Part shown: positions 1 through 50,580 of the stretch, piece after piece
Numbering within the stretch: the first letter of the stretch is position 1
Layout: every line of letters starts with the position of its first letter
Assembly (NCBI GenBank): GCA_000002445.1
Contig: AE017150.2
Location: forward strand, 128,001 to 192,000
Length of the DNA stretch: 64,000 nucleotides
From: Trypanosoma brucei
Taxonomy: Eukaryota
Direction: 5' to 3'
Position numbers and translations under genes: made by a program
The notes under the pieces: generated by a model
Seen by the model: the letters and a program-made list of their open reading frames with translations, nothing else
Database searches by the model: none
What the model was told of the DNA's origin: nothing

Positions 1-711
1 TTATCTGACATTAGCAATAGCGCACTTAATGATATTTTTCTCTCTCGATCCATTACGTCACTCAACCTAGCCTCCAGTTGGAAACTAACAGACATATCTC
101 ATATATCAAACCTTACGGCACTGGAGGAATTGAATCTGAGAAGATGTTACCCCATAACTTCAGGCTGGGAAGCACTAAGCGAATTACCACGACTTCGTGT
201 GCTCAACTTGGAATCCGCCAGTGTCACGACCCGTTACGATGGATATTATATCAGCAGATGCAAATCCCTCGTCACACTCAACCTTGAATCGTGTGATATG
301 ACCGATGCTTCATGTCTTGCTAATATCAAGACACTGGAGGAGTTGCATATAGGGAGATGCAAAGAGCTAAGGCGGGGGTTTAGTCCACTTTTCACTCTTC
401 CGCGGTTGCGCATTCTTAACTTGATTTGTTCTCTCATTAAAGATGAAGATCTCAGGGAAATTCAACCACCCCATACCATTGAGGAGCTCAATCTCTCTTA
501 TTGTGAAAATCTTAATGATATCACACCACTTGGGAGAATAAAATCAATTAAAAAATTGCATCTCCGTCAGAGCCATGATGCCAGAAGGCCTACAGAAGGA
601 TTCAGAAGTCTTTTGGAATTGCCATGTCTTTCTTGGGTTGACCTAAACAACGTGTGTGGCTGGTCCGATGTTTATGTTGAACTGAGAAAGAGGAGGGTAT
701 ATATCCGTTAA
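1..711 (+). CDS. Leucine-rich repeat protein (LRRP) paralog, C-terminal about 236 codons. The 5' part of the gene lies upstream of the window.
   Basis: Frame 1 is open from base 1 to the stop at 709-711. The translation (LSDISNSALNDIFLSRSITSLNLASSWKLTDISHISNLTALEELNL...) is about 93% identical to the C-terminus of the complete LRRP at 30854..35038 (nt 34328..35038). It has the cysteine-containing LRR consensus LxxLxLxxCxxITD. Confidence 0.8.
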   Translation, partial: LSDISNSALNDIFLSRSITSLNLASSWKLTDISHISNLTALEELNLRRCYPITSGWEALSELPRLRVLNLESASVTTRYDGYYISRCKSLVTLNLESCDMTDASCLANIKTLEELHIGRCKELRRGFSPLFTLPRLRILNLICSLIKDEDLREIQPPHTIEELNLSYCENLNDITPLGRIKSIKKLHLRQSHDARRPTEGFRSLLELPCLSWVDLNNVCGWSDVYVELRKRRVYIR

Positions 712-2840
712 TATGTGATCCATTGTTTCACTTTGTATAATTGGAACCACTTATTACTGAGAATACGTTATTAAATTTAACAGCCAGTTCGAGTGGTTCG
801 CTCACTGTAGGCACTATTACTCAAACAGATACCAGTAACAATTCACATGGATGATATTGTATGTTACACTATCTTAAATACGAGAAATACGAGGATTTCA
901 TTACAGTTATTTAAGTGCTTCGTATTTCACTAAGTCATACCAATCATATATTGTGAAGAATAAAGAACAGTTAGGAAAGTGTGTGTGTGTGTGTATGCAC
1001 AAGGCTTTTTTCTCAGTGGTAATTTGTATTTTAGTTGCAAGCGTAGTAATTATTATATTACGCTCATTTATACTACAGCCATATCAAATGAATATCTCAT
1101 TTCCTGTATGTTTTTCTGTCTTTACAGCCACATACTCTCACCCAAATGTCGAATGAAATATTATCGTTATTATTATTACTATTATTTCTATCGTTCTTAT
1201 TGTTATTACATGAAACACAACATTCACATTTAATTTTTACTCATAGCCACACCCGAAAAGTAAAAGCACTCAACATTCTACAGTACTGTATACCTGTCAA
1301 TGATATGAGGAAGTGAAGTTTATATACCATTAAAGTATAGTGAATATATTTCATTATTCTTATTATTATTTGTTTTACTGAAAGAAATGACAGAGTGACT
1401 TTACAATAAATTATATCAGAGCACCATCTTGACCACCAAGTTCTTACATGGGAGAGGATAAAACAACACATTACGTGTCTCGTGATTCTTTTTTACACTT
1501 GCCACTGGTATATCTATATTCTCAAATAGTGCGATTGAATATTCTCGTTTCATTAAAATATTATATTATAACTTGTTGTATTTGTTTGGTTTTTTAATAA
1601 CATAATTTATTTTACTACATTTCCTTTCAGAATTATTTGTGCCAAATATTTGTAAAGATGTCATACATTCCGAATACCCTTGCGCAGCAAAGGGTTGTGT
1701 ACCGCCTTAATTCATTAACATTTGTGCTACATGTGCATGGTAAAGTGTATTAAACATTTCACTGGTTTTGGGAAATATTATTTTCTTTCTTACAACATGA
1801 TGCCTCAGAAGGACTGAAGGCGAGACCAAATCCTTTCATTTTTTTTATTTTCCTTTTCTTACCGTATCCGTATATGTTTATGACTTTCCAGCAAACACTG
1901 CCGAGGTGAATTATGTATTCCTTCATATTTACTTTTTATTTGACAATAACAAGAAAAGGATTTCCTCCTCACACACTTAAATTAATTAGACACTGCTGTT
2001 AGCTGATAAGTTACAGAAAGCCGCACATTTAAGTTACACAAATCCACACCGATTCGAAATAGTAAAATATCAAATATTATGTATTTATTTGAGGAAAAAA
2101 AAGAGACGAAAAGCAGCGCTGCATCTGAAGCAAGATGCATGTGAAATCGAAGAACAACTGTCATTTGAATATCACATCCCCAAATTGTTTCGCTTACATT
2201 ATTAGCAGTAAATTCTTACGGAACTTGGGAAGTGAATGACTACTGAAATTAAAAGCATGAGGACGCACTGCGATGGCACATGAGAGAAACATTGGTGGGA
2301 TTTTTATATATTGGAAAGTGGAGTGGCTTTAAGGTGTTTTACATGATGTTTAGTTGGAGATTGAAATAATTCAGGAAATAGTGAAAGACTGTTATGATAC
2401 AGGAATTTTTTCGTTTACTAATTTCAAGCGCACTTCCACGACGCACCATTTTCGGTTTACATTGCAAGAAGTGGTATGATATTTGCAACCGCTTATTTCT
2501 TATTTATTTATTTTTTCGAGTTTATATAAGTGTGGTTTGGTGACGTGGAAAATTTTAGCATGTGGTTAATGTCTTTATGACAAGAAACTGCTCTGCTCGA
2601 GCTATGGTATTGGAAGGTTAAATATAAATTAGATGTTTTATGAGTTAATCAAATGCTGAATGCTTCAACTGACTCACTCTTCAAACCAAAACACTTTCTC
2701 AGCTTTTCCACTCTCAGCTAAAAATGTAGTTCAGTTTCCAAACAGCACACCACATCTCATTCACCATCGGGTAAAGAGATATTTTTTGTATGGTCAACAC
2801 GAAAGTGGAGAAATGCAGAAAGTAGAAATAAAATAAAGAA

Positions 2841-2857
2841 TATATATATATATATAT
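2841..2857. repeat. (TA)n microsatellite. The paralogous copy is at 37141..37161.
   Basis: tatatatatatatatat read directly. Confidence 0.9.
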
Positions 2858-5499
2858 CGAATTATGTTGGAACTGCAGGTATCATTCAACCTAAGAGAAA
2901 AAGCACCTTTCCTTCTGTTGTGAGCCGCAACCATACCGTGATGAAGTTACAAGTGGAAGGAGTTGACTCAAATCATTCATCACCTAATATCTGTAATGTG
3001 AATATTTTTGTTTAGAGATATTCGTATGTTAATAAGAGACCATTATGCAGAGGGAAGAACAACCGACGACTGCAACCTAAAACCCGTAATTTTCGGACTG
3101 TAATAAACTTTAATAGTTTCATTTAATTATGTAAAGATGGCATCAGCAGATTACACTTGTAAGCTGTTTGAAGTCAAAACAACGATACACGGAAGGGAAT
3201 GTGCAAGTGGTGATTTAAATTGCATGTTTATGAGAAATTTGTATTGTGAATCAACTGTTGAAATATGTTGCGCGATATTAACAGCAGATTTTTTTTCTTC
3301 ATATTATTCTTCTTTTCTTTTCTTTTTTTTGCTTGTTTGTCGAACAATCTGAGGTTTAGTTGATATATTCCTGAGTTTCATCACATGTGTTTCTGTTTAT
3401 ATAATACCAATCGTTACAAACTAAATATCTGCAGTAAGTATATTAAAAACATACGATTTATTGCTACCTCTTGCTTCATTTCTCTTTATTCAAACGGCAC
3501 TTTCTTTTAATCTTGTAAATAATGTTTTTATCGTTGTTTCATTTGTTTGCACACTTAATCCTCTGCGCACGCTGTTGTATTTATTTGCTTCTACACACTC
3601 ACAAAAAAAAAATATATATATATATATATCATTTTGAAACAAATCGCGGTTGTGACTGATGTTTGTTCTGTTTGCGTCGTATTATAAGGGGAATGTAAGT
3701 TTCGTTGATTAAACATTTCATGACGCATCATTACCGAGTTGTTTGTTATGAACTCATAATTAACCATGAGACAGGTTTTCACGAGTAACACTCCCTGCAT
3801 AAATGCAATGCACTGAAGGAATGTAATTTTATTTATTTATTTATTATTACTACCATTTTTATTACCATTATGATTGTCAGTATTAATATTCAGGTTTTCA
3901 TCCATCACTATTTTATTTTTGATATTTTTTTCCAACATCTGTTTCAAGCAACATGGTCGATTGGAAATAATGTAGACATCAATGGTTAGAGAAACTTTGA
4001 TTTGCCTTGACCGTGCAGATGCGCAAAGTTCAAAAGGTTTCAGAAAGGTGATGGGGGAAGTTTAACCATATTTTTTTATTACTGAATTATTTCTCTCAAA
4101 TGCTTTTTTTCTTTTGTATTGCACTTACATTCAAAACCAATTGGGCAGCGCTTTGAAGGCAGTGAAGTGGCGTATGGAAATATTTGCGTATTGGGTGGTT
4201 CTTTAAATTGTGATGATTACGTTCCTAACGGTGATGGAAAAAAATTAACATATGAATGTGTGTTCAATAATAATAATAATAATTAAATGCCAAGTTCCCT
4301 TACTTTCTGTATCAAATAGTGAGTCTGTTTTCTAATCTCATTTTTTTAAAATGCGTATCGAGGTTTAGGAGGCACAATGTTGCTTAAAACTCAACTCTCA
4401 CGAAAATGACACAAATTAAGGGAAGCTTCTATCGCAGCCACCATTTCCATGTGTGCAACAGTAATCGAGTCATTGTAACAATTTTTTTTTTGCGCGTGTG
4501 AAGTGTGAAATCCTCATGAGAACTCAAAATTTACTACAATAATACTCATTATGCAAGGTGCTTTGAGTGGGGAAGGCGGTGCAGACTCAAATATCCAAAA
4601 CAATTTATTTTCCCATATGGCAGAACGAACGGAAGCTGTAGTGAAACATACACTGCAAAGCGAGAAAAGTATATCTCCTGGTGCCGACACTCTCCAACGA
4701 TGTGAACACAAAACCCTTCATTTACGAACAGGAGGCTTCAGTTTGTTTATTTGTTTGTTTGTTTTTGAATCCATTCCTCACATCAGCGTCCAAAATTAAA
4801 TACAGGGAATTCAGAACCTTTATCATGACCATGATTGCTGTGTCTTGTAAGATGATACATATTTTATGATAGGAACTTACTGGGAACCAGCAGTCAACAA
4901 AAGAAATACGAAAGAACACAACAGTGATAAACATATATTACCTTGAAGCTACATGTGTACGTTTGCACGGAATTAGCTCAGTGGTATTTTCGAACTCAGA
5001 GAATGGCACGTGTGCTACAGTCAGATAAAATGAATAAAATACCAAATCTCGTGGATCAATTAATGTATTTGAAAATAGAATCTCATGCTGTATGGTCCTT
5101 AGAGGCATGAAAATAGATTCAATAACGCTAAGGTGTGACAGTGTTGAGGCATCTGTTAATCAACATGCGTTGAAAGTGGGGGAAATGTCAGTGAATATCT
5201 GAGGTAGCGCCAAACTATTTTTTTTTAATGGCCACAAAATGCTGCAGTGGAGCACTGTGGAAATATTTTCATTGGATAGAAAAATGTGTGAGGAAAGTTT
5301 ATTAAATTTGTTTGAGATTTATAACTGTTCTACCTGAGTAACTGTGTGCGTGCTTTAGTACAGGAATCCCTTTGCGATAAAGCTTCTATTTCCTTTACAA
5401 AGAAACACTAAGAAGCCGAATTAGTTATAAAAGCAAAGCAAATATTTTAATCAAGAACAATATTCAATGTTTTGCTTCAGGACAAAAAAACACTTATTC

Positions 5500-6240
5500 T
5501 GGGAAAAAAGCGTCTGAGGGGACGTGAAGCAAGAGTTGATAATGTTTTCAGTTTATATGGCTCCCTATGCAATGCAAAGTGAAGTCACATTATAATGGAC
5601 AACGAAACTCAACTGCTCGGGATGGAGTTTGTTGATGGAACGCGTAGTGGAAATATAATGTGGAAGGATGAAGAACTTAATGTTGTCCCTGAAATTGAGG
5701 AAGCCGTTAAGAAACCAGAGTGCAGGGAAGAAGTTGAAGCAATGGTTCTAACATCTCAAATGGGGTGATAATAGGCCAAGTTCACCAACGGAAGTAACAA
5801 AAACATATTCATCCGTAGAGAAGAGTTCCGCGTATGGAATGTTGTAAGGAGTGGAATTGAATTATGGCGTACACAACGTGCTTTACCGGGATGTCCTGAT
5901 TTTCCACGATCATACGCTGCCATTGTTAACCCTGGGATTGGAAAATCTCAGAATTTGGGTTCTTTTATCCTCTACAAGTTATTGCATTGTGATGCGGAAG
6001 AGTTGCCTATTGTTGCGTACTTCTGTGGCATGGCAGTGCTAATATTTGAAACCAACTGATGGACCCTTCGGCATGATCAAGAGAGATAGAGGATACGCAG
6101 CTTTCATGCTGGACGGAAGCATGCCAAGCATTAGTCATTTTTTCTGCTACGCGTTTAATGAAAGTGTGCATTTATCTGAGTTGTCTGTGAATTGGGGAAG
6201 CGCTCTGACCAGTTCGTTTAATGAGCAAACTCCCATGGCT
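5500..6240 (+). pseudogene. RHS (retrotransposon hot spot protein) N-terminal fragment, degenerate. Related to the RHS subfamily of the gene at 51639..53663. Has in-frame stops and a frameshift.
   Basis: Translation contains ...SHIIMDNETQLLGMEFVDGTRSGNIMWKDEELNVVPEIEEAVKKPE...MVLTSQMG** then FIRREEFRVWNVVRSGIELWRTQRALPGCPDFPRSYAAIVNPGIGKSQNLGSFILYKLLHCDAEELPIVAYFCGMAVLIFETN*. It is about 90% nt-identical to 53040..53250 (minus) of the intact RHS. Weaker RHS similarity (WGSALTSSFNEQ vs WGSILISSHNER) continues in another frame to about 6240. Confidence 0.7.
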
Positions 6241-9200
6241 GAGTGTTGAACACACCTCATTGCGATGTCGGAATCCGGTGTATCTGCGAGAGGCGGGGAG
6301 ATTAAATGTTCGCGCGCATCCCGTCTTAAGAATTGCGGCAGTCGGACAGTAACGGACTGCCCGGGGGAGAAGGAAAAGCGGCGAAACCGTCGGTTTTCGG
6401 GATGGTGGGAAGCATCGGTGTGATCCTCCACGTGTATAAACATGATTCTTTCGGTATCTTTAGAGCGCTCTCAATGTTGAGATCTGTGGTGTTAAGCAGA
6501 ATACAGGTCTGATCTCAGGTGAGTCGCAGCGGAATTCTGGTGAACTCTCCCGGCCGAAAAGGACCACCTAAGCAAATAACTGCGCGAGAAAAGGGTAAAT
6601 GCCACATTTTTCACGAAACGTTATCATCAGAGGCGGAGGCGGAATCCACAGTGATGACTCGGTGTTGGAAGATTGATATGGCACGGCCCCTTAAGGGTCC
6701 ATAAGCGTGGAGATTGGCAATGGATGGGATCGGTGTGTCGAAAGGCTCACAAAAAAACAAACGAGCGAGTACTAAATACGATAGGTTGATCATATTGTCA
6801 CACTGGAGCTGCTAATTGCATCTGTATCGGCGTTTTTACACAAACGAAAACAATAACAAAGGAGGAATCGGGCATACGGTGGCCGACGTAACGTTTCAAA
6901 ACAGCCGGACACGGGATCCAACTACAACATCTGTCAACGGAAGATGATGCGCTGTGCAATGGCCCACGCAGTATATGATGGAAATAACCGGTACGAGGAA
7001 TGACGCGAGAACGTCCCATGTGTAACTGGTTTTCACCTCAAGTCATGGTCATCTACAGGTTATGTGGAATAGATGAAAATAATGGGGAATTGTGAAAGAC
7101 AAGGTTTGACAAGAGTTTTTCGCTGTCATCGTCATTATTCTTCGGAAAGTCAGCGTATGGGTTGTTATTATGGCGGCGCGAACTAAACCAGTCCGACGAC
7201 GGTCACTGCATTTTCCTCCCTCGCGACTACTGATATTTTCTCCGCTTTGTCCTTTTCCAAACATTTTTAATTCGTGAAGGTCTCACCATCTTTCCACTTC
7301 TTCCGGTAAAACTCTCTGCACCTGCTTTTCTATCCACACTCGCTGCGGTTTTCCACTTCAGAGTGTGGCCAGTAGCCTTCTCAGCTCGTCTTGCCATTTG
7401 TTTGGCTGTGCTCGCGCCTTCCGGCATTCTGTTAAAAGCTGCGTCTTCCTTCTGTTCCCGATGTCAACGACTGCTGTCCTTTTTACCTTTGCAGAATTCG
7501 CACGCTCTCAAGAATTTCCTGACATTTTGCACCTCTTCCCAGTTCTCTCGCCCACATCGTGGTCATTCCTATACCTGCGCTACGATAGCGTGACGGTTTT
7601 TACCATAGGCCTCGTCACCGAATCTAGCGCCGGTGTTTCCCGCGCCTGTGAACTTTCGCCCATGGTGTCCACGGCAAGTCGTTTCGCAACGATCCTTATT
7701 CCGCTGCATTTACAAGTTGCCGTTGGCTCTCTTTCCCACTTGGCGTCATGACAACAATGGCTGCGTTCGGCTTTGGCATATGGCTTGTGTACAGCATCTC
7801 TTTTTTCGCTTATTTATTTCGTGTGTCGAGGGAATGCTGCCGTTGGCATTGACGTTCCTGAACTCAGCAAGCTCCTGCGATCACTCACTTTCGTGAGTTC
7901 CATCAGCCGCAACTGTTGTGCTCTCGAGTTTGGCGTCGTGCTTTCGCTCGCTTAGCGTCTAGTTAAATGCCATCGCCATGGGCGTCTCCTGAGCAACAAG
8001 ACGTTTCTTCATACAAGCAACATTAGACTTACATTGTTGTGTCGTATGTGACGGAGGAAGACGCAGCTACGGTTTCAGGGTGGTGAGCTCCGTCCGTTTG
8101 TTTTTATCATCGGTGACAAATTCGATTACGCAGTTGTTTTACCCTTCTGTAACTTTCCCTTCCCCAGTTTCAACTGTACAGGTTTTCCTGAAAGTCATTC
8201 CCGTCTGACAAGTTGGTTTGTTTTTTCCTCCCTTTACCGCTTCCAACAAACAGAACGCCGTCCGCGACACAACTACACCTCTTTTCCCCTTTCCTTCCCC
8301 ACCAAAGAACATCGTTGAAAGTTCGATACTTTCAAAGCAACTTTAGCGTAAGAAGTTTTTTGGCGGCGATGCCTGAGAATAGTCAAGTCTCACTTCCCTA
8401 TAATATAGCAATAGAAAAAATATAACATAATTATAAAGAGTGCCTTCGTACAAACGAGTTTTACTGAAATATAAGTCACATCGTAAACGAAATTTATTGA
8501 TACTTATCTAACCGCCTCTATTACTTACAAAGCGGAAGTGTCTGAAAGTGTCCTTAACCCGCTTCCCGCGCTCCCCTTTGCTTGCTATTTGGACACCCAT
8601 GGGGTTATCCTTCTGAGGTCACGTAAAACTCCATGAAGAATCAATCCTTCCATTTTGCAGCACTCTCCGTCTATGGCTACGGCCTCATGAATCATGGCAT
8701 TGGAATGTGTGTTGTAATTCCCACCATATTTTTTAAAAAAATAATATGCATCATACTTGTGTTGACTACTCATACATGTAAGAGACTCTTCAATCTCTTT
8801 CATAAGGCAAATATTCAAAAGTGGACCGCAGTTTCACAAGTAGCACTTGCAGTTAAGAACTTCTCTTCCGAATTGATAAATAATAAAACCACTCCCATCA
8901 CCCTTGCATGGAAGCATCCGTTACCATCATGACCACAGTTGCTACAACTCGCTACGTGCTCACTGGTGTTTTCTTTACTAAAATGCACATCCATTTTTGT
9001 GTCAGCTGTAACGCATATGTGTGTATGTGTGTGTCTGTGTGTGGTGGCACGGTTAAATCATTGGGTCGCATCGGGACCATATTGCATCATGACAAATATC
9101 ATGCTACCATTTAAAAAAAAAGTAGCAGTATTATTAAGGAGAAAGCTATTGTTTTCTCACTCCTGCTGCCACGTACATCATGCATGATACAACAGTTTCC

Positions 9201-12200
9201 ATTTATTCTATAGTAGTTTTTTTTCATATTGCAAGGGATACTCGGAATTGTTGTGTCACTTTCGTTGTCCCAGCCATACTGTCTGCTTTTCATGGTTAAA
9301 CTAAAACTCCAATGAAATCACACTGTTGTGTCATCTTTTGCAAATCACCAATGATAGTAGTGTGCCTCACATTCCTCCATGTTCGTAACTATTTTGTTTC
9401 CACGACATTTAACCACGTCATGTGCCTCACACTGATAAATATGTTGCATATCCATGTTTGAGTCCTCAATCTTTCATGGGTCGATTGCTGCAGCCTCACG
9501 ACATCGGCGTCTTCTGAAAAGACCCTTGTGATGGTGTGTAAAACTCCAGGAGTCCATTTTATTAACTGATGGGGAGTTGATTCAAATTCATTAATTCCTC
9601 ATTTTAGTTAAGGCATCGGAACCCCAGCCGAATATTCTCAGGTAACTTCACTTGGGAGAGGAATGACTTTAGATCAAACACTGCCACCGACTGGTCATGG
9701 AGAGTATTTAAATACTGGGAAAAGTGACCCAATGGGACATATGCCTCATAATCATCCCTGCTCTTTTTAGCCTTTGGTCATGCAATAAACCAACGCCTTC
9801 TTCCAATTCTGTTTTTCCTCCATCACAAAGAATGGCACATAACCCATCCTGTCGTATGTCTCTTTGAAACTGTGCCAATGATACGCGGCTGCTTGATTAT
9901 TTGGGCATACTTTTCCACAATGTGCAGTTCAGATTTCCCTGTTTGATACTTTCTCTCTTTCTTTCTCTTTCTCCACATCATCTGTGCTATTCATAATGCT
10001 CCAAACCTCATCAAATTGTTTACTCGCTGCTTGCATCATCCTCTGTCGTATCCACGAAAAGGAAATTATTCCCACATTCATTTCCTATTGGAGAGGTGAA
10101 GTCTTTTTTTTTCCTCATCCCGTGATGTCACCTTCATTTCCCCTTATGAGTGTCAAGGAATGCTGTGCAATCGATAATTTGGGAAGATATTCACCGTTAT
10201 AAGTCCCGGCTTCCCTCACACTGAGGCTGCACATTTCTTCCAATTATATCTTACATCAAAAACATTAAAAGAATCGACTTGCTGACGGCAGCTGTCACAT
10301 ATCTGAGATACCGCACTGTGCTTCGTTGAAGTTCCATTGTGTAGATGTGCTTTCCCATTTGTATTAATAATATGTTGTCAATGTCGTGCTTCCATTGCAA
10401 CTACTGCCGCTCCGCGTGTCAGCAATGCTCTTCTCTTTATGGAATGTTCTATCATTACGTGTGGTCGTTTCAGTATGGTGTCACTTTTCCCCTTTGTGGT
10501 AATGGCTATGATTTTTCCTCTTTCCTCCAGAGGTTCCTCCCTATGACTTTTCTCACACTGGCAATGTCCTTTTCCCAGTTGATAATTATGCCTCGTGCGA
10601 CTCTGTGGGTATCGCTTTTGAATTTCTTTGGAAGGTTCCCCCCAAAATCCACTATTGAGGCTTGCCTGCCGTGTGAGTGTGGTATAACATATTCCTCTTT
10701 TTTGGGAGCTGTGTAATTTCTTTTTGCCATCAAATGGCTGGATGCAATTCATTCCATTGATATTGCAACTGGATACCACTCTGGACGGAACTTCCTGCAA
10801 GATATTATCGAATCCCCATTACAACATGTGTTGTGTTTGTTTGATGGGTTTACCTGTTACCGTATTGTAAAGACAGACCCAAAAACAAAATCCGCGTCGG
10901 TGTGTCCAATAGAAATGATGGAAGAGCTCTCCTGTACTGAAATGGCGTTGCTCTCTGAGAGTCGTAAACTTACAACAACAAATAGAAACGCAGTTACATT
11001 CTATACTGGCATGCGGTAATGATTTTCCGCCAATGCATAAAAACTCCGCATGATGAATTCCTATTGCTCACATGTTTTAGTCCTCAGCCACATTCACTTT
11101 GCTATTCTATTGGCTCCTGAAACCAATGCCATGATGTACGGATGGCTTTGTGTGTGGGAACTGCAATAAAAATAAAAATAATAATAATAACTCCTTTCAC
11201 CAATGAGTTTACTATTGGTTGCAAAAGTGCTCTTGGTGTCACTCCATTTTCTTTTTCAATCCTCAGCTGCTGAGGGGCTGCTGTATTTTTTAAAAAGAGT
11301 GACGCACCGTTTTATTCCCCACCCCTTTCAGGTGACTTCCTCCTGCACGGTTTATACTTTCCCATTGTAGAATGTTTTTCAAGGTGTTTCCTTTGTGAAG
11401 CTTTGGTTATGCTATAATTAAAGACCACTCAAATCCCTGCTTCAGGGAACTGTTGTTGCATTTATTCCCCTTTAATTGTTGCAAATTTGTTCACTTGACA
11501 AGTTGTACTGCGATGCTTCACTTTACCATATGTGTAACATCGTGTCTCGTTGGTTTGTAAAAATTCAAAAAGAACACATCAGGTGATATTCTTCTGTTCT
11601 TACTTCGTACATTCACATCTCTTCCCGTCAGTTCGGAAACTCCCACTCAAACTCACCACTCTGTGAAGATTTGTAATTTCCGTTATGGATGGACGTACTC
11701 AAGTGGACATGTTTGGCACTTCAAAACTAAGTTTTTTAAACTTACACCTTCCTTCTTTCATAGAGCTTCAGTGCGAGAGTAAAAGAATAGTTGAGTATTA
11801 TGAGAAAACATAAGCCCAAATATTCTCGATGCAAGTTTTCAATAAAAGCAAACGCATTGAGATGGTTTAGTGAACACATGCAGTATAATCCCTAGCAAAG
11901 GTATTATTCACACCCAATAAACAACTCAAACAAATAACACCAGCATACATATCGCAGACACATAAGTTGCACCTTCACAAACAAATGATGACTGCTGTGA
12001 CTCATCATGTGTAAAATATTATGAGAACAAAAACATAAATGTCCTTGATCTTCCATAAATGTATAGCACAATATTATTTTGCATTATCATCGGAAAAATA
12101 TTTTTTTTATATTGATATATATATTCAGCTAAAAGTCAAGAGTGAGCTCTGGCCTTGTAGAACTGTAAATGCGTGCATGTTCTGTTATTATTGTTTCCCA

Positions 12201-14178
12201 TTGTAAAATGAAGATACGTGCAGGTGTGGAGAAACGACTCCATTAATGCTTATGATGCACCAAATAATTCTCTCGTAAAGAAAGGAGAGAACAAATGCTC
12301 AGTACATGCGTCCCTATTTGTATCTTTAAATTAAGGTTCTCTTGAGTGGAGTAAAAGAAGAAAAGGCAAGAAGTATATGATGTGAGTGATAATACATAAT
12401 GAAATGACCCAACAAGAGGGAAAGGAAGTTACATGCCTTCACTACAGTCATACAAATAAAGCCAGACCCTTTACACTCGTTTCACAGTGTTCTGTCGCAT
12501 CGCTCTGTATAAACAAATTACTAATAGGAAATGGAAATGTAAGAAGAGAGTAAAAAAGTATCAAGTAGCTTGAGGATTATCGACACTCAGCTACGTGGAA
12601 TGATACGCATCGCAAATTTGTGTTTGAAATGATCACCATCCTAATGAACTTACTCGTATGTTACTTAATCCTGGGAAATACTTCTCTGTGCGCTCAAGTT
12701 ACCTGACAACTTTCCTTCCACACCCTATGCATTGTTACCACCTCCATTGTTAACTCCGTTGTTCCTGTCATATTCCTCAAGTTTTTCTTTGCATTCGACG
12801 TATAGTGCAATAATGCGCTCATTAAGTGAGACGGAAAATTGACGCACTTCCCTTTTCCAAAATCTTTCCTCACGTTTGCTTTGTTCATCCGTGGCTGTCC
12901 TGCTACAACACTGTGGCTTTGTAATTCTTTCGTCGTCAACCCTTTGAACATATATTATTTCCCATACCATATCATTAGAAAAATTGTCCCAGCGTCTAAA
13001 GTAACTTTGCAAACACCTTTTCATCTTAAATAACCCACCGGTGCTGCAGGGATGACTACCAGAAATTGTGTACTGCAGTCCCACAAAAGTCTTCGGGTTC
13101 TCAACAAAAAAGAACGCATCAACAACTGGGAAACTCCTTGATTGCGGCTTGTACAATTTCATGTATTCAATTTCAGCTCCAGCTACAATTGGAACATCCT
13201 CAGGAACCTCAATCGAAGGACCAATGAGTCTTGGTTCTTGCAGCACCTGCAGCACACTTCGTGGAATTTGATCCTCAGAAAGTGAGAGGCCCTGTAACTC
13301 CCTTGCCAACTCAATTAGTGCATCCTCATGTGACAATGCTTCAATGCCACTGTTCTCAAACATGTAGGCAGCGAGGGCGCGGTTAGACAACATGCCAGAA
13401 ATTAAAGCATATTTTTTTGTCCGCCAAGGTCTCAGAAAGTCTAAAATAGCTTGTCCCGTGTAAGATGAAAGCGGTCTGCAGCGATACGCATCACAAAGGG
13501 GGTCACCATCAACCACACGGACAGCCCTCACTAACTTGTGTGATACCTCATCTGTTTGCCACATACCTGCGTTTTGGAAAATTTTAGCGTAATCATTCAT
13601 ATCATCATCTCTCATTTTGCCAATGACCTCTCGAATTAGTTCCCGCTGCCTTTTATACCAAAATGAATCAACGATATGACGAAGCAGTGGACCAACGATA
13701 CGAATGCGGGCTTGAATTTCTTGCCATTCTCTTTCAATTTTCTCCTTCGCATCTGAAGGACTCCAACCGTAAGCAAGAGCAATTTTCCCCCACCTCGATA
13801 TGTGTATGGCTTCCAAATCCTTCAATGTGTCACAGTTTATGTAAATATGTGTAGCGCCGTTTTGCTTGGACCATTCATGGAATTGTCTAACGTTTGGAGA
13901 ACTCAAAGCAATACCGGAAAAATCACCAGGTGGTTTCACTGGAGCATGATGGTCCTTGTCCACGTCGAATATAAGGTATCCCTTAATATCCTCACCGCCA
14001 CTCGATTCTCCGATTATTTGCTTAACAGCTGTGAATGCACTCTTATAATTACTGTAAAACGTAACATATCCTGCTCGATCGCCTTTGGGTTTACGAAACA
14101 CGTACGCCTCGCCCTCCACAACGTATATGATAATCTGAAGCTGACTCGCTTCATAATGCAGTAGTTTGTATAACAGTA

Positions 14179-14682
14179 TTTTTTTTTTTTTAGAATTTTC
14201 TTCGTGCCTTCGTGAGAGTTTCTCCCAACTGGCGCGGCCATCAGCCATCACCGTAGAGCCCCGAGATGCTATCGGTCTGGCGACTGTGGCAGAGTCTCCC
14301 TTTTTCATTCATCCTAACACACTCTCTATAATTTTTGTTGTATTTCCGCATATGAACGGAATACAGCAGATGGGGCGAGAACCCTCCCACCCTGGACTCT
14401 CCCAAAGATGCCAATTTGCAATCCTTTTTTGGAGGTCCACATCACCGGACAGCAGCATCTTAGCGCGGATGATACTGCTGATGGCACGCTGGCACGTGCC
14501 CAGGGACCGACAAATGAAAAACGGTGTCCCAGCAAGACGCTGCTGATCCCTGTGCTGTATGATGCCGTAGCCGGAGCACAGCAGTGTTCCCCATGAAAGG
14601 AACGCTGCTGGCTCTTGGCTTCCCCCGATGATACGGGGTACTGGACCCTGGCACAACATTGAGGTGGCCGGCATCGCCAGGG
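14179..14682 (-). mobile_element. RIME (ribosomal mobile element, the non-autonomous ingi derivative), full length about 504 bp, copy 1 of 3. poly(A) end at 14179..14191.
   Basis: The plus strand shows a poly-T right after the TSD. The reverse complement of the right end is CCCTGGCGATGCCGGCCACCTCAACG..., the conserved ingi/RIME/L1Tc 5' signature. Length is about 500 bp. It is flanked on both sides by TGTATAACAGTA. Confidence 0.85.
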
Positions 14683-14694
14683 TGTATAACAGTA

Positions 14695-15202
14695 TTTTTT
14701 TTTTTTTAGAATTTTCTTCGTGCCTTCGTGAGAGTTTCCCCCCACTGGCGCGGCCATCAGCCATCACCGTAGAGCCCTGAGATGCTATCGGTCTGGCGAC
14801 TGTGGCAGAGTCTCCCTTTTTCATTCATCCTAACACACCCTCTATAATTTTTGTTGTATTTCCGCATATGAACGGAATACAGCAGATGGGGCGAGAAGCC
14901 TCCCACCCTGGACTCTCCAAAAGATGCCAATTGGCAATCCTTTTTTTTTCGGAGGTCCACATCACCGGACAGCAGCATCTTAGTGCGGATGATACTGCTG
15001 ATGGCACGCTGGCACGTGCCCAGGGACCGACAAATGAAAAACGGTGTCCCAGCAAGACGCTGCTGATCCCTGTGCTGTATGATGCCGTAGCCGGAGCACA
15101 GCAGTGTTCCCCATGAAAGGAACGCTGCTGGCTCTTGGCTTCCCCCGATGATACGGGGTACTGGACCCTGGCACCACGTTGAGGTGGCCGGCATCGCCAG
15201 GG
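14695..15202 (-). mobile_element. RIME copy 2 of 3, about 508 bp.
   Basis: About 98-99% identical to copy 1, with small indels in the T/A runs. It has the same flanking 12-bp TSD. Confidence 0.85.
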
Positions 15203-15214
15203 TGTATAACAGTA

Positions 15215-15716
15215 TTTTTTTTTTTAGAATTTTCTTCGTGCCTTCGTGAGAGTTTCTCCCAACTGGCGCGGCCATCAGCCATCACCGTAGAGCCCTGAGA
15301 TGCTATCGGTCTGGCGACTGTGGCAGAGTCTCCCTTTTTCACTCATCCTAACACACTCTCTATAATTTTTGTTGTATTTCCGCATATGAACGGAATACAG
15401 CAGATGGGGCGAGAACCCTCCCACCCTGGACTCTCCCAAAGATGCCAATTTGCAATCCTTTTTTGGAGGTCCACATCACCGGACAGCAGCATCTTAGCGC
15501 GGATGATACTGCTGATGGCACGCTGGCACGTGCCCAGGGACCGACAAATGAAAAACGGTGTCCCAGCAAGACGCTGCTGATCCCTGTGCTGTATGATGCC
15601 GTAGCCGGAGCACAGCAGTGTTCCCCATGAAAGGAACTCTGCTGGCTCTTGGCTTCCCCCGATGATACGGGGTACTGGACCCTGGCACCACGTTGAGGTG
15701 GCCGGCATCGCCAGGG
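15215..15716 (-). mobile_element. RIME copy 3 of 3, about 502 bp.
   Basis: Same as copies 1 and 2. It ends ...gcatcgccaggg at 15716 and is followed by TSD 15717..15728, after which the RHS N-terminal coding sequence resumes. Confidence 0.85.
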
Positions 15717-16799
15717 TGTATAACAGTAGGGATCCCACGGAAAACGATTTACCAATACCGGGTGTACCAATAAGAACATGAAACATCGGGTTGACAGTCA
15801 CTTCACCCATAAGCCACTGGTTAAGCCGTTCCTCAACCTTATGCCACACCCTCAGTGTTTCCCTACGGATATAAACATCACTATTAAAAACGTACCCCAC
15901 TCCTCTCTTATGATTAATATCATAATCTTTTGGGTTCGCTTTACACGACGTGTATGGCCAACCCATTTGAGATGTAAGCACAGCAATCTCCAAGTTACCG
16001 TCACGGGGAAGTGGTTTATACATTGTTTCCGGAACGTGACTGACATCAACTTCCTCCTTCGTCCACATGCGCGGCGGTCTTCCATCAAACACTTTCATTC
16101 CGAGTGGCTCTTCCCTGTGACCCGACTCCACATAACCCCACGTCGCATTGTATATGGATTCATATACTCCTCTCAGTTCGACAGCACCACCAGCTGTTTG
16201 GGTGGCTCGTTCCCTTGCTTCTTTGGCGGCCGCCAACGCTCCATCCAACATTCCCCTCGCCACGGGACCAACAAATTCCCTTATTTCCCCTCTTCCCTTC
16301 TCCTCCCACTGCCGGAGGTAGTAAATTTCCTTCTCAGACAGATACCTTGCTTTCCGCTTCATTTCAGAGAATTGGTCATATAATTCTTTATATTCCTCAA
16401 ACTCATCTGTGCCTTGTATATCCTCAAGAATCTCAGCATCAACAATATATCTTCTGGGATTCTTAACAAACACATCCATGGCTACATTCCGTGTGTCATA
16501 CGTGTTTAAAAACTTTTTCAGCAAAAAGTCATGCAGCGTCATATTACGCAAACCCGCATAATCTTCCAGCAGCACATTCCTCACCTTACTGTTCATTGTC
16601 CAATAGGGTCCCCCTTCAGTTCTCTGCCGTATTTGTGGAGGCTGAGCAGCAGCAGCAGCAGGAGGCGGTACATTTTCATCCCGTGGCCTCCTCACGGCTG
16701 CTCCAAAATTACCTGCTACTTGTTGGTTTGCATTATTTCTTCGTCGACCTCCACCTCTTCGACGTCTTGACATAACTCTCTTAATATTATTAACTTAAC

Positions 16800-39784: not shown

Positions 39785-40520
39785 AAAAGCGTCTGGGGGG
39801 ACGTGAAGCAAGAGTTGATAATGTTTTCAGTTTATATGGCTCCGTATGCAATGCAAAGTGAAGTCACATTATAATGGACAACGAAACTCAACTGCTGTGG
39901 AGGATGGTTGTTGATGGAACGCGTAGTGGCAATGTAATGTGGAAGGATGAAGAACTTAATGTTGTCCCTGAAATTGAGGAAGCTGTTGAGAAGAAACCAG
40001 AACGCAGGGAAGAAGTTGAAGCAATGGTTCTAACATCTCAAATGGGGTGATAATAAGCCAAGTTTGCCGGGGTGAGTAACAAAAACATATTCATCCATAG
40101 AGAAGAGCTCCGCGTATGGAATGTTGTAAGGAATGGAATTGAATTATGGCGTACACAGCGTGCTTTACCGGAATGTCTTTATTTTCCACGATCATACGCT
40201 GTCATTGTTAACCATGGGATTGGAAAATCTCAGAATTTGGGCTCTTTTATCCTCTACAAGTTATTGCATTGTGATGCGGAAGAGTTGCCTATTGTTGCGT
40301 ATTTCTGCGGCATGGCAGTGTTAATATTTGAAACCAACTGACGGACCCTTCGGCATAATCAAGGGAGATAGAAGGTACGCAGCTTTAATGCTGGACGGAA
40401 GCATGCCAAGCATTAGTCATTTTTTCTGCTACACGTTTAATGAAACTGTGCATTTATCTGAGTTGTCTATGAATTGGGAAGCGCTTCGACCAGGTCGTTT
40501 AATGAGCAAACTCCCATGGC
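39785..40520 (+). pseudogene. RHS N-terminal fragment, duplicate-copy-B counterpart of 5500..6240.
   Basis: ORF 40072..40341 translates FIHREELRVWNVVRNGIELWRTQRALPECLYFPRSYAVIVNHGIGKSQNLGSFILYKLLHCDAEELPIVAYFCGMAVLIFETN. Upstream there are the same in-frame double stops after TSQMG. Confidence 0.7.
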
Positions 40521-46500: not shown

Positions 46501-46884
46501 AGTAAAGAAAAAACAAAGAAAAGGCAAGAAGTATATGATGTAATTGGTGAGGCATAATGAAATGACCCAACAAGAGGGAAAGGAAGTTACATGCCTTCAC
46601 TACAGTCATACAAATAAAGCCAGACCCTTCACACTCGTTTTACAATGTTCTGTCGTATCGCTCTGCATAAACAAATAATACTAATAGAAAAGGGAAATGT
46701 AAGAAGAAAGTAAAAAAGTATCAAATAGTTCGAGGATTATCGACACTCAGCTACGTGAAGTGATACGTATCGCAAATGTGTGTTTGAAATGCTCACCATC
46801 CTAATGAACTTACTCGTATGTTACTTAACCCTGGGAAATATTTCTCTGTGCGCTCAAGTTACCTGACAACTCTCCTTCCGCACC

Positions 46885-49800
46885 CTATGCATTGTTACCA
46901 CCTCTATTGTTAACTCCGTTGTTATTGTTACCTTTTACTTGCAATTCAACGTATAGTGCAGTAATGTGGTTACTAAGAGAGACCGCGAACTGACGCACTT
47001 CCTGTTCACAAAACCTTTCCTCAACCTTATTATTTTGTCCTCCGTCTTCGATTGTCCCCTCACAACATTGTGGCTTTGTAATTTTTTCGCTGTCAACCCT
47101 TTGAACATAGATTATTTCCCATACCATCCCGCGTGAAAAATTGTCCCAGCGTCTAAAGTAACTTTGCAAACACCTTTTCATCTTAAATAACCCACCGGTG
47201 CTGCAAGGATGACTACCGGAAATTGTGTACTGCAGTCCCACAAAAGTCTTCGGATTCTCAACAAAAAAGAACGCATCAACAACCGGGAAACTCCTTGATT
47301 GCGGCTTGTACAATTTCATATATTGAATTTCAGCTCCAGCTACAATTGGAACATCCTCAGGAACCACAATCAAAGGATTCGTGAGTCTTGGACCTTGCAG
47401 CACCTGCAGCACACTTTGTTGGATTTGATCCCCAGCAAATGAAAGGCCCTGTAACTCCCTTGCCAACTCAGTTAGTGTATTCTCATGTGACAATGCTTCA
47501 ATGCCACTCTTCTCAAACAGATGACCAACAATAGCGCAGTTAGACAGCAGAGCAGATATTGCAGCATATTTATTCAGTAACCAAGGCCTCAGAAAGTCTA
47601 AAATAACTTGCCCCGTGTAAGATGAAAGCGGTGTGCAGAGATACGAATCACACAGAAGATTCCCTTTCTTCACTCGAACAACCCTCACTAACCTGTGTGA
47701 TGCTTTGCGTGTTTGCCAGGTAGCTGCGTTTTGGAAAATTTTTGCGTAGCTTTCCTTCTTTACATCACTCATTTCGTTAATGGCTTCCTCGATTAGATCA
47801 CACTGCCTGGTGAACGACGCCGAATCAACAATGTGACGAAGCAGTGGGCCAACGATAGGAATGCGATCTTGAATTTCTTGCCATTCACTTTCAATTTTCT
47901 CCTTCGCATCTGAAGGATTCCAACCGTAAGCAGGAGCAATTTTCCCCCACCTCGATATGTGTATGACTTCCAAATCCTTCAATGTATCACAGTTAATGTA
48001 AAAATGTAGGGCTTTGTTTTGCTTGGACCATCCATGGAATTGTCTAACGTTTGGAGAGCTCAAGGCAATACCAGCGAAATCACCAGGTGGTTTCGTCGGA
48101 GCAGGATGATTCTTGTCCACGTCAAATATAACGTATCCCTTAATATTCTCTGCGCCACATGAATCTCTGACTATTTGGCCAATAAGCGTTGAGGCATCAT
48201 CATAATTACTGTAAAACGTAACATATCCTGCTCGATCGCCTTTGGGTTTACGAAACACATACGCCTTACCACTCACAACGTACATGATAATCTAAAGCTG
48301 ACTCGATTCATAATGCAGTAGTTTGTATAACAGTATTATTTTTTTTGGAATTTTCTTCGTGCCTTCGTGAGAGTTTCTCCCAACTGGCGGGGCCATCAGC
48401 CATCACCGTAGAGCCCTGAGATGCTATCGGTCTGGCGACTGTGGCAGAGTCTCCCTTTTTCATTCATCCTAACACACCCTCTATAATTTTTGTTGTATTT
48501 CCGCATATGAACGGAATACAGCAGATGGGGCGAGAAGCCCCCCTCACCCCGGACTCTCCAAAAGATGTCAATTAGCAATCCTTTTGTTTTGATTTTTGTT
48601 ATTCGTTTATTATTCTCTCCCCCTCTTTCTGTTTCTGTTGCTTGTTGATTGCATACCCCCTCTGTCTCTAAGGGTGTCTGGACTATTCCTGCGTCCTGTG
48701 CTTTTCCTGCTAGCTCCACACTCGGCAATAAGGGGGGAAGTTGCAGAAGGGAGAGTGGGTTGTATGACTGTTACCTTAGGTGAGGACTTCACCTGCGGCC
48801 GGCTCCGTTCAACCGCAATGAGAAATTGCGCCAGCATTTAAGAGAAACATACATGCTGCACACACTCACCTTCTACCGCAAACCTGACACGTAACTCCTT
48901 CAAACCTGGACAGCTCATCAAGTGCAGCGACGTTTCTTCGCAGTCGCCGCGTTGGCTGGTAACAGCGCGCTCTACCTTCATACCGTTCATCTTCTTTTGA
49001 TGGAGGGTGAGGCCAGTTTTGCTAGCACACTGCCTTCCGCATGTCGGGCACACCAACATGGATGTGTTTTTATGCGGGGAATCAGTGGCACACAATTTTG
49101 TGCTTTTGCTGCATTTAAGCTCGACTCCCTCACCTTTGTGGAAAGCCTTACAGTGTCGGATGAGGGAGTCCCTGCAACTGAGCACTTTTTGGCACACACC
49201 ACACTGCACCCCGCCCTTCCCCGGGACGTCAACGTTTTCCTCACGGGCACGCTTACGAGGGAATTGCACCAACACCACGGTACCGTCCTCCGTCACTATG
49301 CTTTTATGTTTGAATTTCTTGTGTAGTGACAGGGAAGAACGTGTACCGAAGCTCGCCTCGCACAGGTCACATTGAAACGGCAGCTTCCGTGTATCCTGAG
49401 AGGCTGGCGCTGCTGGGGCTTTACCATCTCCTTGCACTGAGTCCTCGTTCTCTCGCCCCCTTTTCACGCGGCAACTGCCGCTGCCTATGCCATGTATTGT
49501 TCTAAGGTGGTGTAGTAGTCTGCCTGGCACTGCGAATTTGGAGGCACAGATGGTACAATGAAGCACCTGCGGTCTCATCGGGACTCGTGTGCTCGATGGT
49601 AGGGGAACGATCGCCACCACTGGAGGGGGCTCCGGGGGGATATCCACTGCAGGTGTTGCATCGCCGTATTTGATCCTCCGGAGGGCATCAGCTCGCACAA
49701 AGCCATGTTTGTTTACCATATGCGTTACAGCACTCGAGCGGCATTGGTATGTGGCATCACATTCCGTACATTTGGTCGGTTCGGAGGTTCTCTGAACAGT

Positions 49801-50580
49801 GCGTGTCGCAACAGTTGGGACTGTTTGTATTGTTGGTCCTATCGCTGCATGTTGCGGGTTACACCATCGGCACTGTGGAGGCACACTCGGGTTGATCTTC
49901 CGCACCCTCTTGAATTGCATACTGCGGAATACTGAAAGAGTTATATGGCCAACCCTTCTGCGAGGTGAGCACAGCAATCTCTAAATTACCGTGACGAGGC
50001 AGTGGGTCGCACAAGTCAAAAGGCGTGTGACTGACATTCACCTCCTCTTCTGTCCACAACTCGGGTTTGCCGTCACAATTACCCACTACCTTCATGCCAA
50101 GAGGTAAATCATTGTGACCCGACTCCACATAACCCCATGTCGCATTGTATATGGAATCATATACTCCTTTCAGTTCTGCACCACCAGCTGTTTGGTCAGC
50201 TCGTTCCCTTGCCTCTTTGGCAGTATCCAATGCCGCATCCAGCATTGCTCTCGCCCTGGGACCAACAAATTCCCTTATTTGCGCTTTTGCCATCTCCTCC
50301 CATTGCTGCATGTCTTAAATTCTATTACGAGGCAGATCAATAACTGCCCTTGGTAATTGAAACTCATCAAGCCGCTGTATCCTGTATTTCTTCAAGAACA
50401 TTAGCATTAATATATTTTCCCGGATTCTGAACAAACAAAAACATGGCCACATTCTCTGTTTTATACGTGTTTGAGAAGTATTGATTCAAAATTTCATGCA
50501 GTTTCATTTCATCCAAGCTCGCATAATCTTCCAGCAGCACATCCTCAATAGAACTGTTAATTGATCAAGTTGGCCCTTTT
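46885..50580 (-). pseudogene. RHS pseudogene B, paralog of A. The C-terminal part (46885..48323) and a degenerate N-terminal part (about 49930..50580, start codon lost, internal stops) are separated by an ingi 3' fragment.
   Basis: The C-terminal ORF 46885..48285 is about 85% identical at the protein level to the A C-terminal part. The N-terminal ORF 49859..50311 (MQQWEEMAKAQIREFVGP...YNATWGYVESGH...NLEIAVLTSQKGWPY) matches the A N-terminal part. Upstream of 50311 similarity continues, but with stops. Confidence 0.8.
48336..49930 (-). mobile_element. 5'-truncated ingi retroelement remnant. It comprises the RIME-identical 3' half with poly(A) (48336..48584) and about 1.35 kb of ingi-internal 3' sequence (48585..about 49930). 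The internal part includes a C2H2 zinc-finger ORF (48838..49977).
   Basis: TSD TGTATAACAGTA at 48324..48335, at the same hot-spot nucleotide as in A. The next about 249 bp are about 97% identical to the poly(A)-proximal half of the RIMEs. Similarity to RIME stops exactly at the RIME midpoint (48584 vs 14430), which is where ingi's 4.7-kb internal segment is inserted. The ORF shows at least four C-x2-C-x12-H-x4/5-H fingers (CTECDATYQCRSSAVTHMVNKH, CTICASKFAVPGRLLHHLRTIH, CDLCEASFGTRSSLSLHKKFKH, CGVCQKVLSCRDSLIRHCKAFH), as expected for the C-terminal domain of the ingi/L1Tc-type ORF. Assignment of the internal part to ingi is by context, not by remembered sequence. Confidence 0.6.

What the first reader, a model, noticed from the sequence alone, without database searches (positions are those of the whole stretch)
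14167..15728. Three tandem RIME copies in one RHS hot spot, each bounded by the same 12-bp TSD
Element and TSD alternate: TSD-RIME-TSD-RIME-TSD-RIME-TSD. Four identical copies of TGTATAACAGTA mean this is not simply three independent insertions into fresh target, because each insertion would duplicate only its own flank. The pattern fits either repeated re-insertion into the regenerated hot-spot sequence carried by the TSD itself, or unequal sister-chromatid or allelic exchange between TSD and RIME repeats that amplified one insertion. The copies are about 98-99% identical, so the array is young or homogenised. This is a compact natural example of how the RHS hot spot can accumulate elements.
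Basis: partly seen in the sequence, partly recalled or inferred. Interest (0 to 1): 0.55.

Follow-up and report, generated by a model that had tools for sequence, protein, structure and literature searches.

The report
Three RIME retroposons stacked in RHS1
A Trypanosoma brucei RHS1 gene is split at its known retrotransposon hot spot by three head-to-tail RIME elements, each separated by the same 12-bp target duplication; this already-described arrangement is best explained by repeated insertion at one self-regenerating site.

Summary
TGTATAACAGTA occurs exactly at 14167, 14683, 15203 and 15717. It brackets three complete minus-strand RIMEs of 504, 508 and 502 nt, each with the canonical 5' end and an 11-13 nt poly(A). 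Removing the array plus three 12-mers restores an intact 832-aa RHS1 ORF. The site lies five codons after the P-loop, which is the published RHS hot spot.

Six RIME/ingi-bearing loci from T. b. gambiense and T. b. equiperdum served as outgroups. The middle copy (B) groups with outside RIMEs: 2/231 differences in the 3' half, against 7/231 to each neighbour. The outer copies (A and C) share five minority states. No substitution is shared by all three copies and absent from every outside element.

An X-Y-X order cannot arise from one unequal crossover or from amplifying a single insertion. At least two source elements inserted independently, and probably three. Four identical 12-mers are what repeated nicking at the same two positions predicts, because the upstream recognition flank and the 12-mer survive each insertion.

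The literature already describes both RHS pseudogenes with one or more retroelements and ingi/RIME tandems separated only by the 12-bp TSD. This is an ordinary, known feature of low interest.

The parts
12725..14166 (-). RHS1 C-terminal half, downstream of the hot spot and running to the stop codon
   Evidence: It is 97% identical over 483 aa to RHS1 Q8T9M3. It is the RHSP domain part of the reconstructed ORF.
14167..14178 (-). 12-bp TSD copy 4 (TACTGTTATACA in element orientation), next to the RHS C-terminal half
   Evidence: Exact match.
14179..14682 (-). RIME copy A, 504 nt, A13 tail, X-type; the 3'-most copy in element orientation
   Evidence: Private states are at positions 25, 28 and 421. 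It shares 266A, 301G, 360A, 456T and 460A with copy C.
14683..14694 (-). 12-bp TSD copy 3
   Evidence: Exact match.
14695..15202 (-). RIME copy B, 508 nt, A13 tail, consensus-like Y-type; the middle copy
   Evidence: In the 3' half it has 2/231 differences to the T. b. gambiense RHS1 hot-spot RIME (L002) but 7/231 to A and to C. It has an extra GAAA in the central A-run.
15203..15214 (-). 12-bp TSD copy 2
   Evidence: Exact match.
15215..15716 (-). RIME copy C, 502 nt, A11 tail, X-type; the 5'-most copy, predicted youngest under the re-insertion model
   Evidence: It has 2/231 (3' half) and 3/247 (5' half) differences to A.
15717..15728 (-). 12-bp TSD copy 1, still next to the upstream recognition flank; this is the regenerated target
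   Evidence: Exact match. Flank shown.
15729..15768 (-). RHS P-loop (GTPGIGKS) and the flank just upstream of the first-strand nick (…CCGTGGGATCCC), the inferred endonuclease recognition region
   Evidence: The same flank precedes the single RIME in the T. b. gambiense RHS1 pseudogene (L002). A G-rich block is also seen upstream of unrelated RIME/ingi sites in L001, L003 and L004. PMC3820030 states that a conserved upstream motif is recognised by the element endonuclease.
15729..16773 (-). RHS1 N-terminal half, from ATG to the hot spot
   Evidence: The ORF 15343..16773 reads from RHS into RIME C. RHS_N and DUF7578 domains are present. It is 80% identical to Q8T9M3.
48324..48335 (-). Fifth copy of the 12-mer, at the paralogous RHS1 pseudogene in the segmental duplicate
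48336..49902 (-). 3'-terminal 1.57 kb of an ingi occupying the same hot spot in the paralogue; its 5' part is deleted
   Evidence: ingi positions 3687-5253, 95%. The ORF has a C2H2 zinc finger. It abuts a truncated RHS_N fragment.

Best explanation
This is an RHS1 pseudogene of Trypanosoma brucei (sensu lato). Its canonical retrotransposon hot spot was hit repeatedly by RIME RNAs mobilised in trans by the ingi endonuclease and reverse transcriptase, through target-primed reverse transcription. In each event the endonuclease recognises the motif just upstream of the site, in the RHS N-terminal flank. It nicks the bottom strand at the flank|12-mer boundary and primes cDNA synthesis there. It then nicks the top strand 12 bp downstream, and fill-in duplicates the 12-mer. 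After insertion, the left 12-mer still sits beside the recognition flank, so the target is regenerated. The next event nicks the same two positions, with the second nick now falling at the 12-mer|old RIME 5' boundary, and it places a new element upstream of the old one. So n insertions leave n+1 identical 12-mers. This predicts insertion order A, then B, then C. A and C come from one minor RIME lineage and B from the consensus-like lineage. Shown here: the anatomy, exact restoration of the ORF on excision, and at least two distinct source lineages. Inferred: the nick positions, the recognition motif, the order of events, and that A and C are separate retrotranspositions rather than a DNA-level copy.
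For: There are four exact 12-mers at precise element boundaries. Every copy is full length, with the canonical 5' end and a poly(A) tail abutting the next 12-mer. Excision leaves an intact 832-aa RHS ORF with the site five codons after GTPGIGKS, as published for the RHS hot spot (PMC7563717). The same site and 12-mer carry a single RIME in a T. b. gambiense RHS1 pseudogene (L002) and an ingi in the window's own paralogue. B groups with outside RIMEs and A with C: 5 quartet sites against 0, and no array-specific shared substitution. Solitary RIMEs in L003 and L004 have exact 12-bp TSDs of other sequence. Two RHS genes in the window with diverged site sequences are unoccupied. PMC3820030 reports a constant 12-bp TSD, a conserved upstream motif recognised by the endonuclease, and tandem arrangements separated only by a TSD that are frequent in T. 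brucei and attributed to independent insertions at the same position.
Against: A and C differ at only 5 of about 478 compared sites. Two of their shared states (266A, 301G) were seen in no other element of my small panel of 3 outside RIMEs and 6 ingi ends. One of A or C could therefore be a DNA-level copy or a local re-copy of the other rather than an independent product of a shared master. There is no age gradient: private changes number A 3, B 2, C 2, so the predicted order is untested. The recognition motif is inferred from about five flanks plus the literature. The primary papers (Bringaud 2002, 2004) could not be read here. The orthologous locus in other strains was not found.
Confidence: 0.62

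Rival explanations
1. Mixed origin: two independent insertions (one X-type, one Y-type), with the third copy made at the DNA level. Routes include ectopic or unequal recombination between RHS paralogues or alleles carrying different occupants (for example X-Y and Y-X arrays pairing on Y), or gene conversion between A and C.
For: A and C are 99.0% identical and share two states unseen elsewhere in my panel. The RHS family is recombinogenic. This gene's N-half is 80% identical to one RHS1 reference and its C-half 97%. The T. b. gambiense paralogue L002 matches the N-half flank at 97% but the C-half at 84%. The window carries a 14-kb segmental duplication that ends inside the retroelement.
Against: It needs more events than serial insertion: two different dimers, or conversion that skips the middle copy. 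A and C still differ at 5 sites and in tail length. Two X-type states (456T, 460A) also occur in the ingi at 48336, so X-type states are not confined to the array.
Confidence: 0.22
2. The array is an amplification of one original insertion, by unequal sister-chromatid or allelic exchange or by replication slippage on the TSD/RIME repeats.
For: The units are head-to-tail, nearly the same length and highly similar. Unequal exchange is a general property of tandem repeats.
Against: No substitution is shared by all three copies and absent from every outside element. The middle copy is not an A5'/C3' hybrid. Its 3' half differs from both neighbours at 7/231 sites, and at five of them it carries the state found in outside RIMEs. 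One unequal exchange from a dimer P-Q gives P-(Q5'P3')-Q, never X-Y-X.
Confidence: 0.06
3. The array is an assembly artefact, an over-expanded repeat, and the real locus has one or two RIMEs.
For: RHS clusters are repeat-rich and hard to assemble. I could not locate the source record or any reads.
Against: The three units differ at 13 substitution sites, a 4-bp indel and tail length. All junctions are clean. Artefactual expansion normally gives identical units.
Confidence: 0.04

Closest known systems
RHS pseudogenes with RIME/ingi at the hot spot (Bringaud et al. 2002, Eukaryot Cell 1:137; summarised in PMC7563717)
   Same: Same gene family (RHS1). Same position five codons after the P-loop. 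Same orientation. The gene is split into two halves flanking 'one or more retroelements'. The 12-mer TACTGTTATACA is also at the T. b. gambiense RHS1 pseudogene L002.
   Different: Nothing essential differs. This copy has three RIMEs and an otherwise intact ORF. I could not read the primary paper to check whether this exact locus is figured there.
Tandem arrangements of ingi-clade retroposons separated only by a 12-bp TSD (Bringaud et al. 2004, MBE 21:520; 2006, MBE 23:411; restated in PMC3820030)
   Same: Head-to-tail elements, with a single 12-bp TSD between a poly(A) tail and the next 5' end. They are explained by independent insertions at one site recognised through an upstream motif.
   Different: The cited text stresses autonomous/non-autonomous pairs such as ingi+RIME. 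Here all three are RIME, from two sequence lineages in X-Y-X order.
Site-specific non-LTR retroposons (SLACS/CZAR in spliced-leader genes; R1/R2 in rDNA)
   Same: Repeated use of one defined nucleotide position within a multicopy host gene, through an element-encoded endonuclease.
   Different: ingi/RIME have only relative site specificity and occur at many other sites with other TSDs (L003, L004). The RHS hot spot is one favoured target, not an obligate one.
Tandem Alu/L1 insertions at one target in human cells (Dewannieux et al. 2003, cited in PMC3820030)
   Same: Independent retrotransposition events stack at one target because the machinery recognises the same sequence again.
   Different: The L1 endonuclease has a loose TTTT/A preference and variable TSD length. 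Here the TSD is a fixed 12 bp and the recognition motif lies upstream.

Membership tests
TbRIME (non-autonomous ingi-clade retroposon) | About 500 bp, made of the first ~250 bp and last ~250 bp of ingi | tested here: met
   Each copy matches ingi positions 1-247 (97.6-98.8%) and 5005/5010-5255 (91.5-92.5%) of a full T. b. equiperdum ingi. Lengths are 502-508 nt.
TbRIME (non-autonomous ingi-clade retroposon) | Conserved 79-bp 5' signature (Pr77) starting at CCCTGGCGATGCC | tested here: met
   The 5' ends align base for base with ingi and outside RIMEs. Ribozyme or promoter activity was not testable. Rfam has no matching family and the MFE fold is not distinctive.
TbRIME (non-autonomous ingi-clade retroposon) | 3' poly(A) tail and a 12-bp target-site duplication | tested here: met
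   Tails are A13, A13 and A11, and the flanking 12-mers are exact. Control RIMEs in L003 and L004 have exact 12-bp TSDs.
RHS1 (retrotransposon hot spot protein, subfamily 1) pseudogene | RHS_N and RHSP P-loop domains | tested here: met
   Pfam RHSP 8.5e-116, RHS_N 2.8e-55 and DUF7578 3.6e-17 on the excised ORF.
RHS1 (retrotransposon hot spot protein, subfamily 1) pseudogene | Subfamily defined by the C-terminal region | tested here: met
   The C-half is 97% identical to RHS1 Q8T9M3. The best whole-length hit is RHS1 at 90%.
RHS1 (retrotransposon hot spot protein, subfamily 1) pseudogene | Retroelement inserted five codons downstream of the ATP/GTP-binding motif, in the gene's orientation | tested here: met
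   The sequence reads GTPGIGKS-FSVGS-[LLLY site]. The criterion is from PMC7563717.
Serial-insertion tandem (ingi-clade elements separated only by a TSD) | Head-to-tail, with one identical TSD between a poly(A) tail and the next 5' end | tested here: met
Serial-insertion tandem (ingi-clade elements separated only by a TSD) | Copies derive from different source molecules | tested here: met
   B groups with outside RIMEs and A with C: 5 quartet sites against 0. The distance matrix agrees. This is met for at least two sources; a third is not resolved.
Serial-insertion tandem (ingi-clade elements separated only by a TSD) | Endonuclease re-cleaves the regenerated flank+TSD site | not testable with these tools
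   This needs biochemistry. Support here is only the retained flank and the literature (PMC3820030).
Unequal-crossover amplification of a single insertion | Array-specific shared substitutions, or a middle unit that is a hybrid of its neighbours | tested here: not met
   There are 0 array-specific shared states. B's 3' half differs from both neighbours at 7/231 sites.

The most novel reading that the evidence does not exclude
Arrays at the RHS hot spot may promote their own spread. The RIMEs lie in sense orientation inside a polycistronically transcribed RHS gene. Each Pr77 5' end is reported to act as an HDV-like ribozyme that cleaves at its own +1 (PMC4035085). Cleavage at a downstream copy would then release the upstream RIME as a unit-length RNA ending in A(n)+UACUGUUAUACA. 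That 12-nt tail is perfectly complementary to the nicked bottom-strand primer (…TGTATAACAGTA-3'OH) at any RHS hot spot. Annealing could steer reverse transcription to RHS genes and to the regenerated site beside the array. This would help explain both the hot spot and the stacking. The evidence here neither supports nor excludes it.
Probability: 0.06. Interest if true: 0.55.

Novelty: already known. Interest (0 to 1): 0.15.

Why it matters
It matters little beyond annotation. The locus should be labelled an RHS1 pseudogene carrying three RIMEs. It gives a clean worked example in which site patterns separate serial retrotransposition from repeat amplification at a self-regenerating target. It adds no new kind of element or mechanism. 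The X-Y-X composition is a small confirmation of the published model that ingi/RIME tandems arise from independent insertions guided by an upstream recognition motif.

Tried and rejected
- **Tandem Repeats Finder:** it returned nothing, because the unit length exceeds its 500-bp period limit.
- **Finding the source record or orthologous locus:** exact-protein look-ups failed for the RHS-RIME chimeric ORF, the neighbouring intact RHS, the LRRP gene and a TREU927 RHS. I therefore could not test array-length polymorphism across strains.
- **L006 (T. b. gambiense chromosome 2 region):** it has no long match to the window.
- **L002:** it is a paralogue, not the orthologue. Flank identity is 93-97% on the N side and 84% on the C side.
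- **Pr77 structure:** the Rfam scan of the array gave only a sub-threshold miRNA look-alike and no ribozyme family. The MFE fold of the Pr77 region is not better than shuffles (z = -0.92).
- **Tandem junction ORFs in databases:** a protein search with the RIME-TSD-RIME junction ORF found no annotated ORF spanning such a junction elsewhere.
- **Primary papers not held:** Bringaud 2002 (PMC118050) and Bringaud 2009 (PMC2756862) are not in the library. The 11-mer consensus from Bringaud 2004 is cited only through PMC3820030 and my memory of the abstract.
- **Corrected inference:** I first thought the L004 RIME shared the A/C state at position 266, from its protein sequence. The codon change is synonymous and the DNA shows the B state.
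Full report
**1. Observation**

The 12-mer TGTATAACAGTA occurs exactly at 14167, 14683, 15203 and 15717, with a fifth copy at 48324. Chance expectation for the window is 0.01 matches, and no shuffle reached five.

The intervals between the first four copies hold three copies of one ~500-bp element. On the minus strand each copy starts with CCCTGGCGATGCCGGCC and ends in A11-13 directly abutting the next 12-mer. The coordinates are:

| Copy | Coordinates | Length | Poly(A) |
|---|---|---|---|
| A | 14179-14682 | 504 nt | A13 |
| B | 14695-15202 | 508 nt | A13 |
| C | 15215-15716 | 502 nt | A11 |

In element orientation the order is C-B-A. A is 99.0% identical to C and 97.2% to B. Tandem Repeats Finder reported nothing only because its period limit is 500.

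**2. What the pieces are**

Each copy matches the first 247 nt and the last ~250 nt of a complete 5.27-kb ingi fetched from T. b. equiperdum (L001). Each also aligns end to end with RIMEs from T. b. gambiense (L002, L003, L004). That is the definition of RIME.

Deleting 14179-15728 (three RIMEs plus three 12-mers) leaves an uninterrupted 832-aa minus-strand ORF. It matches Pfam RHSP at 8.5e-116, RHS_N at 2.8e-55 and DUF7578. Its best database relative is RHS1, at 90% overall. The C-half is 97% identical and the N-half 80%.

The 12-mer encodes part of LLLYKLL, five codons after the P-loop GTPGIGKS. This is the published position of the RHS hot spot (PMC7563717, summarising Bringaud 2002).

As the locus stands, the N-terminal ORF (15343..16773) reads into RIME C. 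An ORF starting in RIME A (12725..14308) reads out into the C-half.

**3. Surroundings**

- Window 1-14428 is a 90-93% segmental duplicate of 34328-48585. Each unit runs from the tail of an LRR (ESAG8-like) gene to an RHS1 C-half.
- The paralogous RHS1 carries the same 12-mer at 48324, followed by only the last 1.57 kb of an ingi. That fragment abuts a truncated RHS_N fragment.
- Two further RHS genes in the window (P-loops at 53141 and 57879) have diverged sequence at the site, with 5 and 7 mismatches in the 12-mer and a different upstream flank. Both are unoccupied.
- A T. b. gambiense RHS1 pseudogene (L002) has the same upstream flank and 12-mer, with one RIME.

**4. Serial insertion versus amplification**

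I polarised the 13 substitution sites that vary among A, B and C against a panel of three outside RIMEs and six ingi ends.

- Five states that look private to B inside the array (266C, 301C, 360G, 456G, 460G) are the states carried by the outside RIMEs.
- A and C share the alternatives. 266A and 301G occur nowhere else in the panel. 456T and 460A occur only in the ingi end at 48336.
- In the 3' half, B differs from the T. b. gambiense RHS1 RIME at 2/231 sites but from each neighbour at 7/231. A and C differ at 2/231.
- Quartet counts give 5 sites for (A,C)|(B,outside) and 0 for either alternative, with either of two outside RIMEs.
- No site has a state shared by A, B and C and absent from every outside element.

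One unequal exchange in a dimer P-Q yields P-(Q5'/P3')-Q. Slippage from a single copy yields identical units. Neither gives X-Y-X with a middle unit that matches outside elements. Amplification of one insertion, and homogenisation, are therefore rejected. At least two different source elements inserted here.

**5. Mechanism**

PMC3820030 states four things about ingi-clade elements:

- They make a constant 12-bp TSD through two staggered nicks.
- They often occur in tandem, separated only by a TSD.
- Such tandems are attributed to independent insertions at the same position.

From TPRT geometry (established knowledge), the first nick falls between the upstream flank and the 12-mer, and the second falls 12 bp downstream. 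After an insertion, the upstream flank plus the left 12-mer is unchanged, so the same two nicks can be made again. Each further event adds one element and one identical 12-mer on the 5' side.

Four identical 12-mers are thus the expected product of three independent events at one site, not evidence against them. The flank …CCGTGGGATCCC is intact next to 15717-15728.

The inferred insertion order is A, B, C. It is untested, because private changes number 3, 2 and 2 and give no age signal. All four 12-mers are intact and the excised RHS ORF has no stop codon, which suggests the events are recent (inference). PMC3820030 gives a median TbRIME divergence from consensus of 4%, so these copies are on the young side.

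**6. What remains open**

A and C could be two products of one minor master lineage. Alternatively, one could be a DNA-level or local re-copy of the other. My panel is too small to decide.

RHS genes are mosaic and recombinogenic. Here the N-half is 80% and the C-half 97% identical to the same reference. L002 matches the N-half flank at 97% but the C-half at 84%. Exchange between differently occupied paralogues therefore cannot be excluded.

An assembly artefact is unlikely, because the units differ at 13 substitution sites, one indel and tail length. I could not find the source record or the orthologous locus in other strains.

**7. Comparison with what is known, and verdict**

Every defining feature of TbRIME, of an RHS1 hot-spot pseudogene and of a TSD-separated ingi-clade tandem was tested and met. 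The features expected of an unequal-crossover array were tested and not met.

[quoted passage not shown] The finding is real, correctly located and largely correctly read, but ordinary.

The only speculative extension concerns the Pr77 5' ends, which are reported to be self-cleaving at +1 (PMC4035085). Upstream array members could be released as RNAs ending in the 12-nt target sequence, and that tail could anneal to nicked RHS hot spots. Nothing here tests that idea. Rfam has no matching family, and none of the six fetched loci shows a transduced 12-mer outside an RHS site.

Noticed in passing
window 1-14428 and 34328-48585: A ~14-kb segmental duplication at 90-93% identity. Each unit runs from the 3' end of an LRR (ESAG8-like) gene to an RHS1 C-terminal half. 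The right boundary falls inside the retroelement 3' half (14428 / 48585).
   Followed up: partly
window 48324-50311: The paralogous RHS1 pseudogene carries the same 12-mer, but only the last 1.57 kb of an ingi (ingi positions 3687-5253). This abuts a truncated RHS_N fragment (49859-50311). A deletion appears to have removed the ingi 5' 3.7 kb, the upstream TSD and part of the RHS N-half.
   Followed up: partly
window 51639-53663 (-) and about 57378-58844 (-): An intact 674-aa RHS and a degenerate RHS have hot-spot equivalents that are unoccupied and diverged from TACTGTTATACA (5 and 7 mismatches), with different upstream flanks. Within this window, occupancy tracks the canonical site sequence, but n is only 4.
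   Followed up: partly
window 30854-35038 (+); also 130-711 (+): A 1394-aa leucine-rich-repeat protein gene (ESAG8/LRRP-like) and the tail of a second copy. No exact match for the product was found in the protein-to-contig index.
   Followed up: partly
window 15729-16773 versus 12728-14176 (-): The two halves of the split RHS1 differ sharply in similarity to the same RHS1 reference (N-half 80%, C-half 97%). The differences are concentrated in the first ~130 aa, which suggests a mosaic N-terminus produced by recombination among RHS copies.
   Followed up: partly
window 456T/460A states: RIME A (about 14219-14227), RIME C (about 15253-15261), ingi end (about 48376-48384): The linked states CAGTTGGGAGAAAC are shared only by RIME A, RIME C and the ingi 3' end at the paralogous hot spot. 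All other panel elements read CAGTGGGGGGAAAC or a variant of it. This could reflect a local lineage, descent through the segmental duplication, or conversion between paralogous sites.
   Followed up: no
L001 9317-9548 and 9993-15247 (T. b. equiperdum CM010679.1): A full-length ingi has no recognisable 12-bp TSD (5' flank GCCAGTTTTACT, 3' flank TTTCCTTTCCAG). It lies next to an inverted ingi 3' fragment, which suggests recombination between elements.
   Followed up: no
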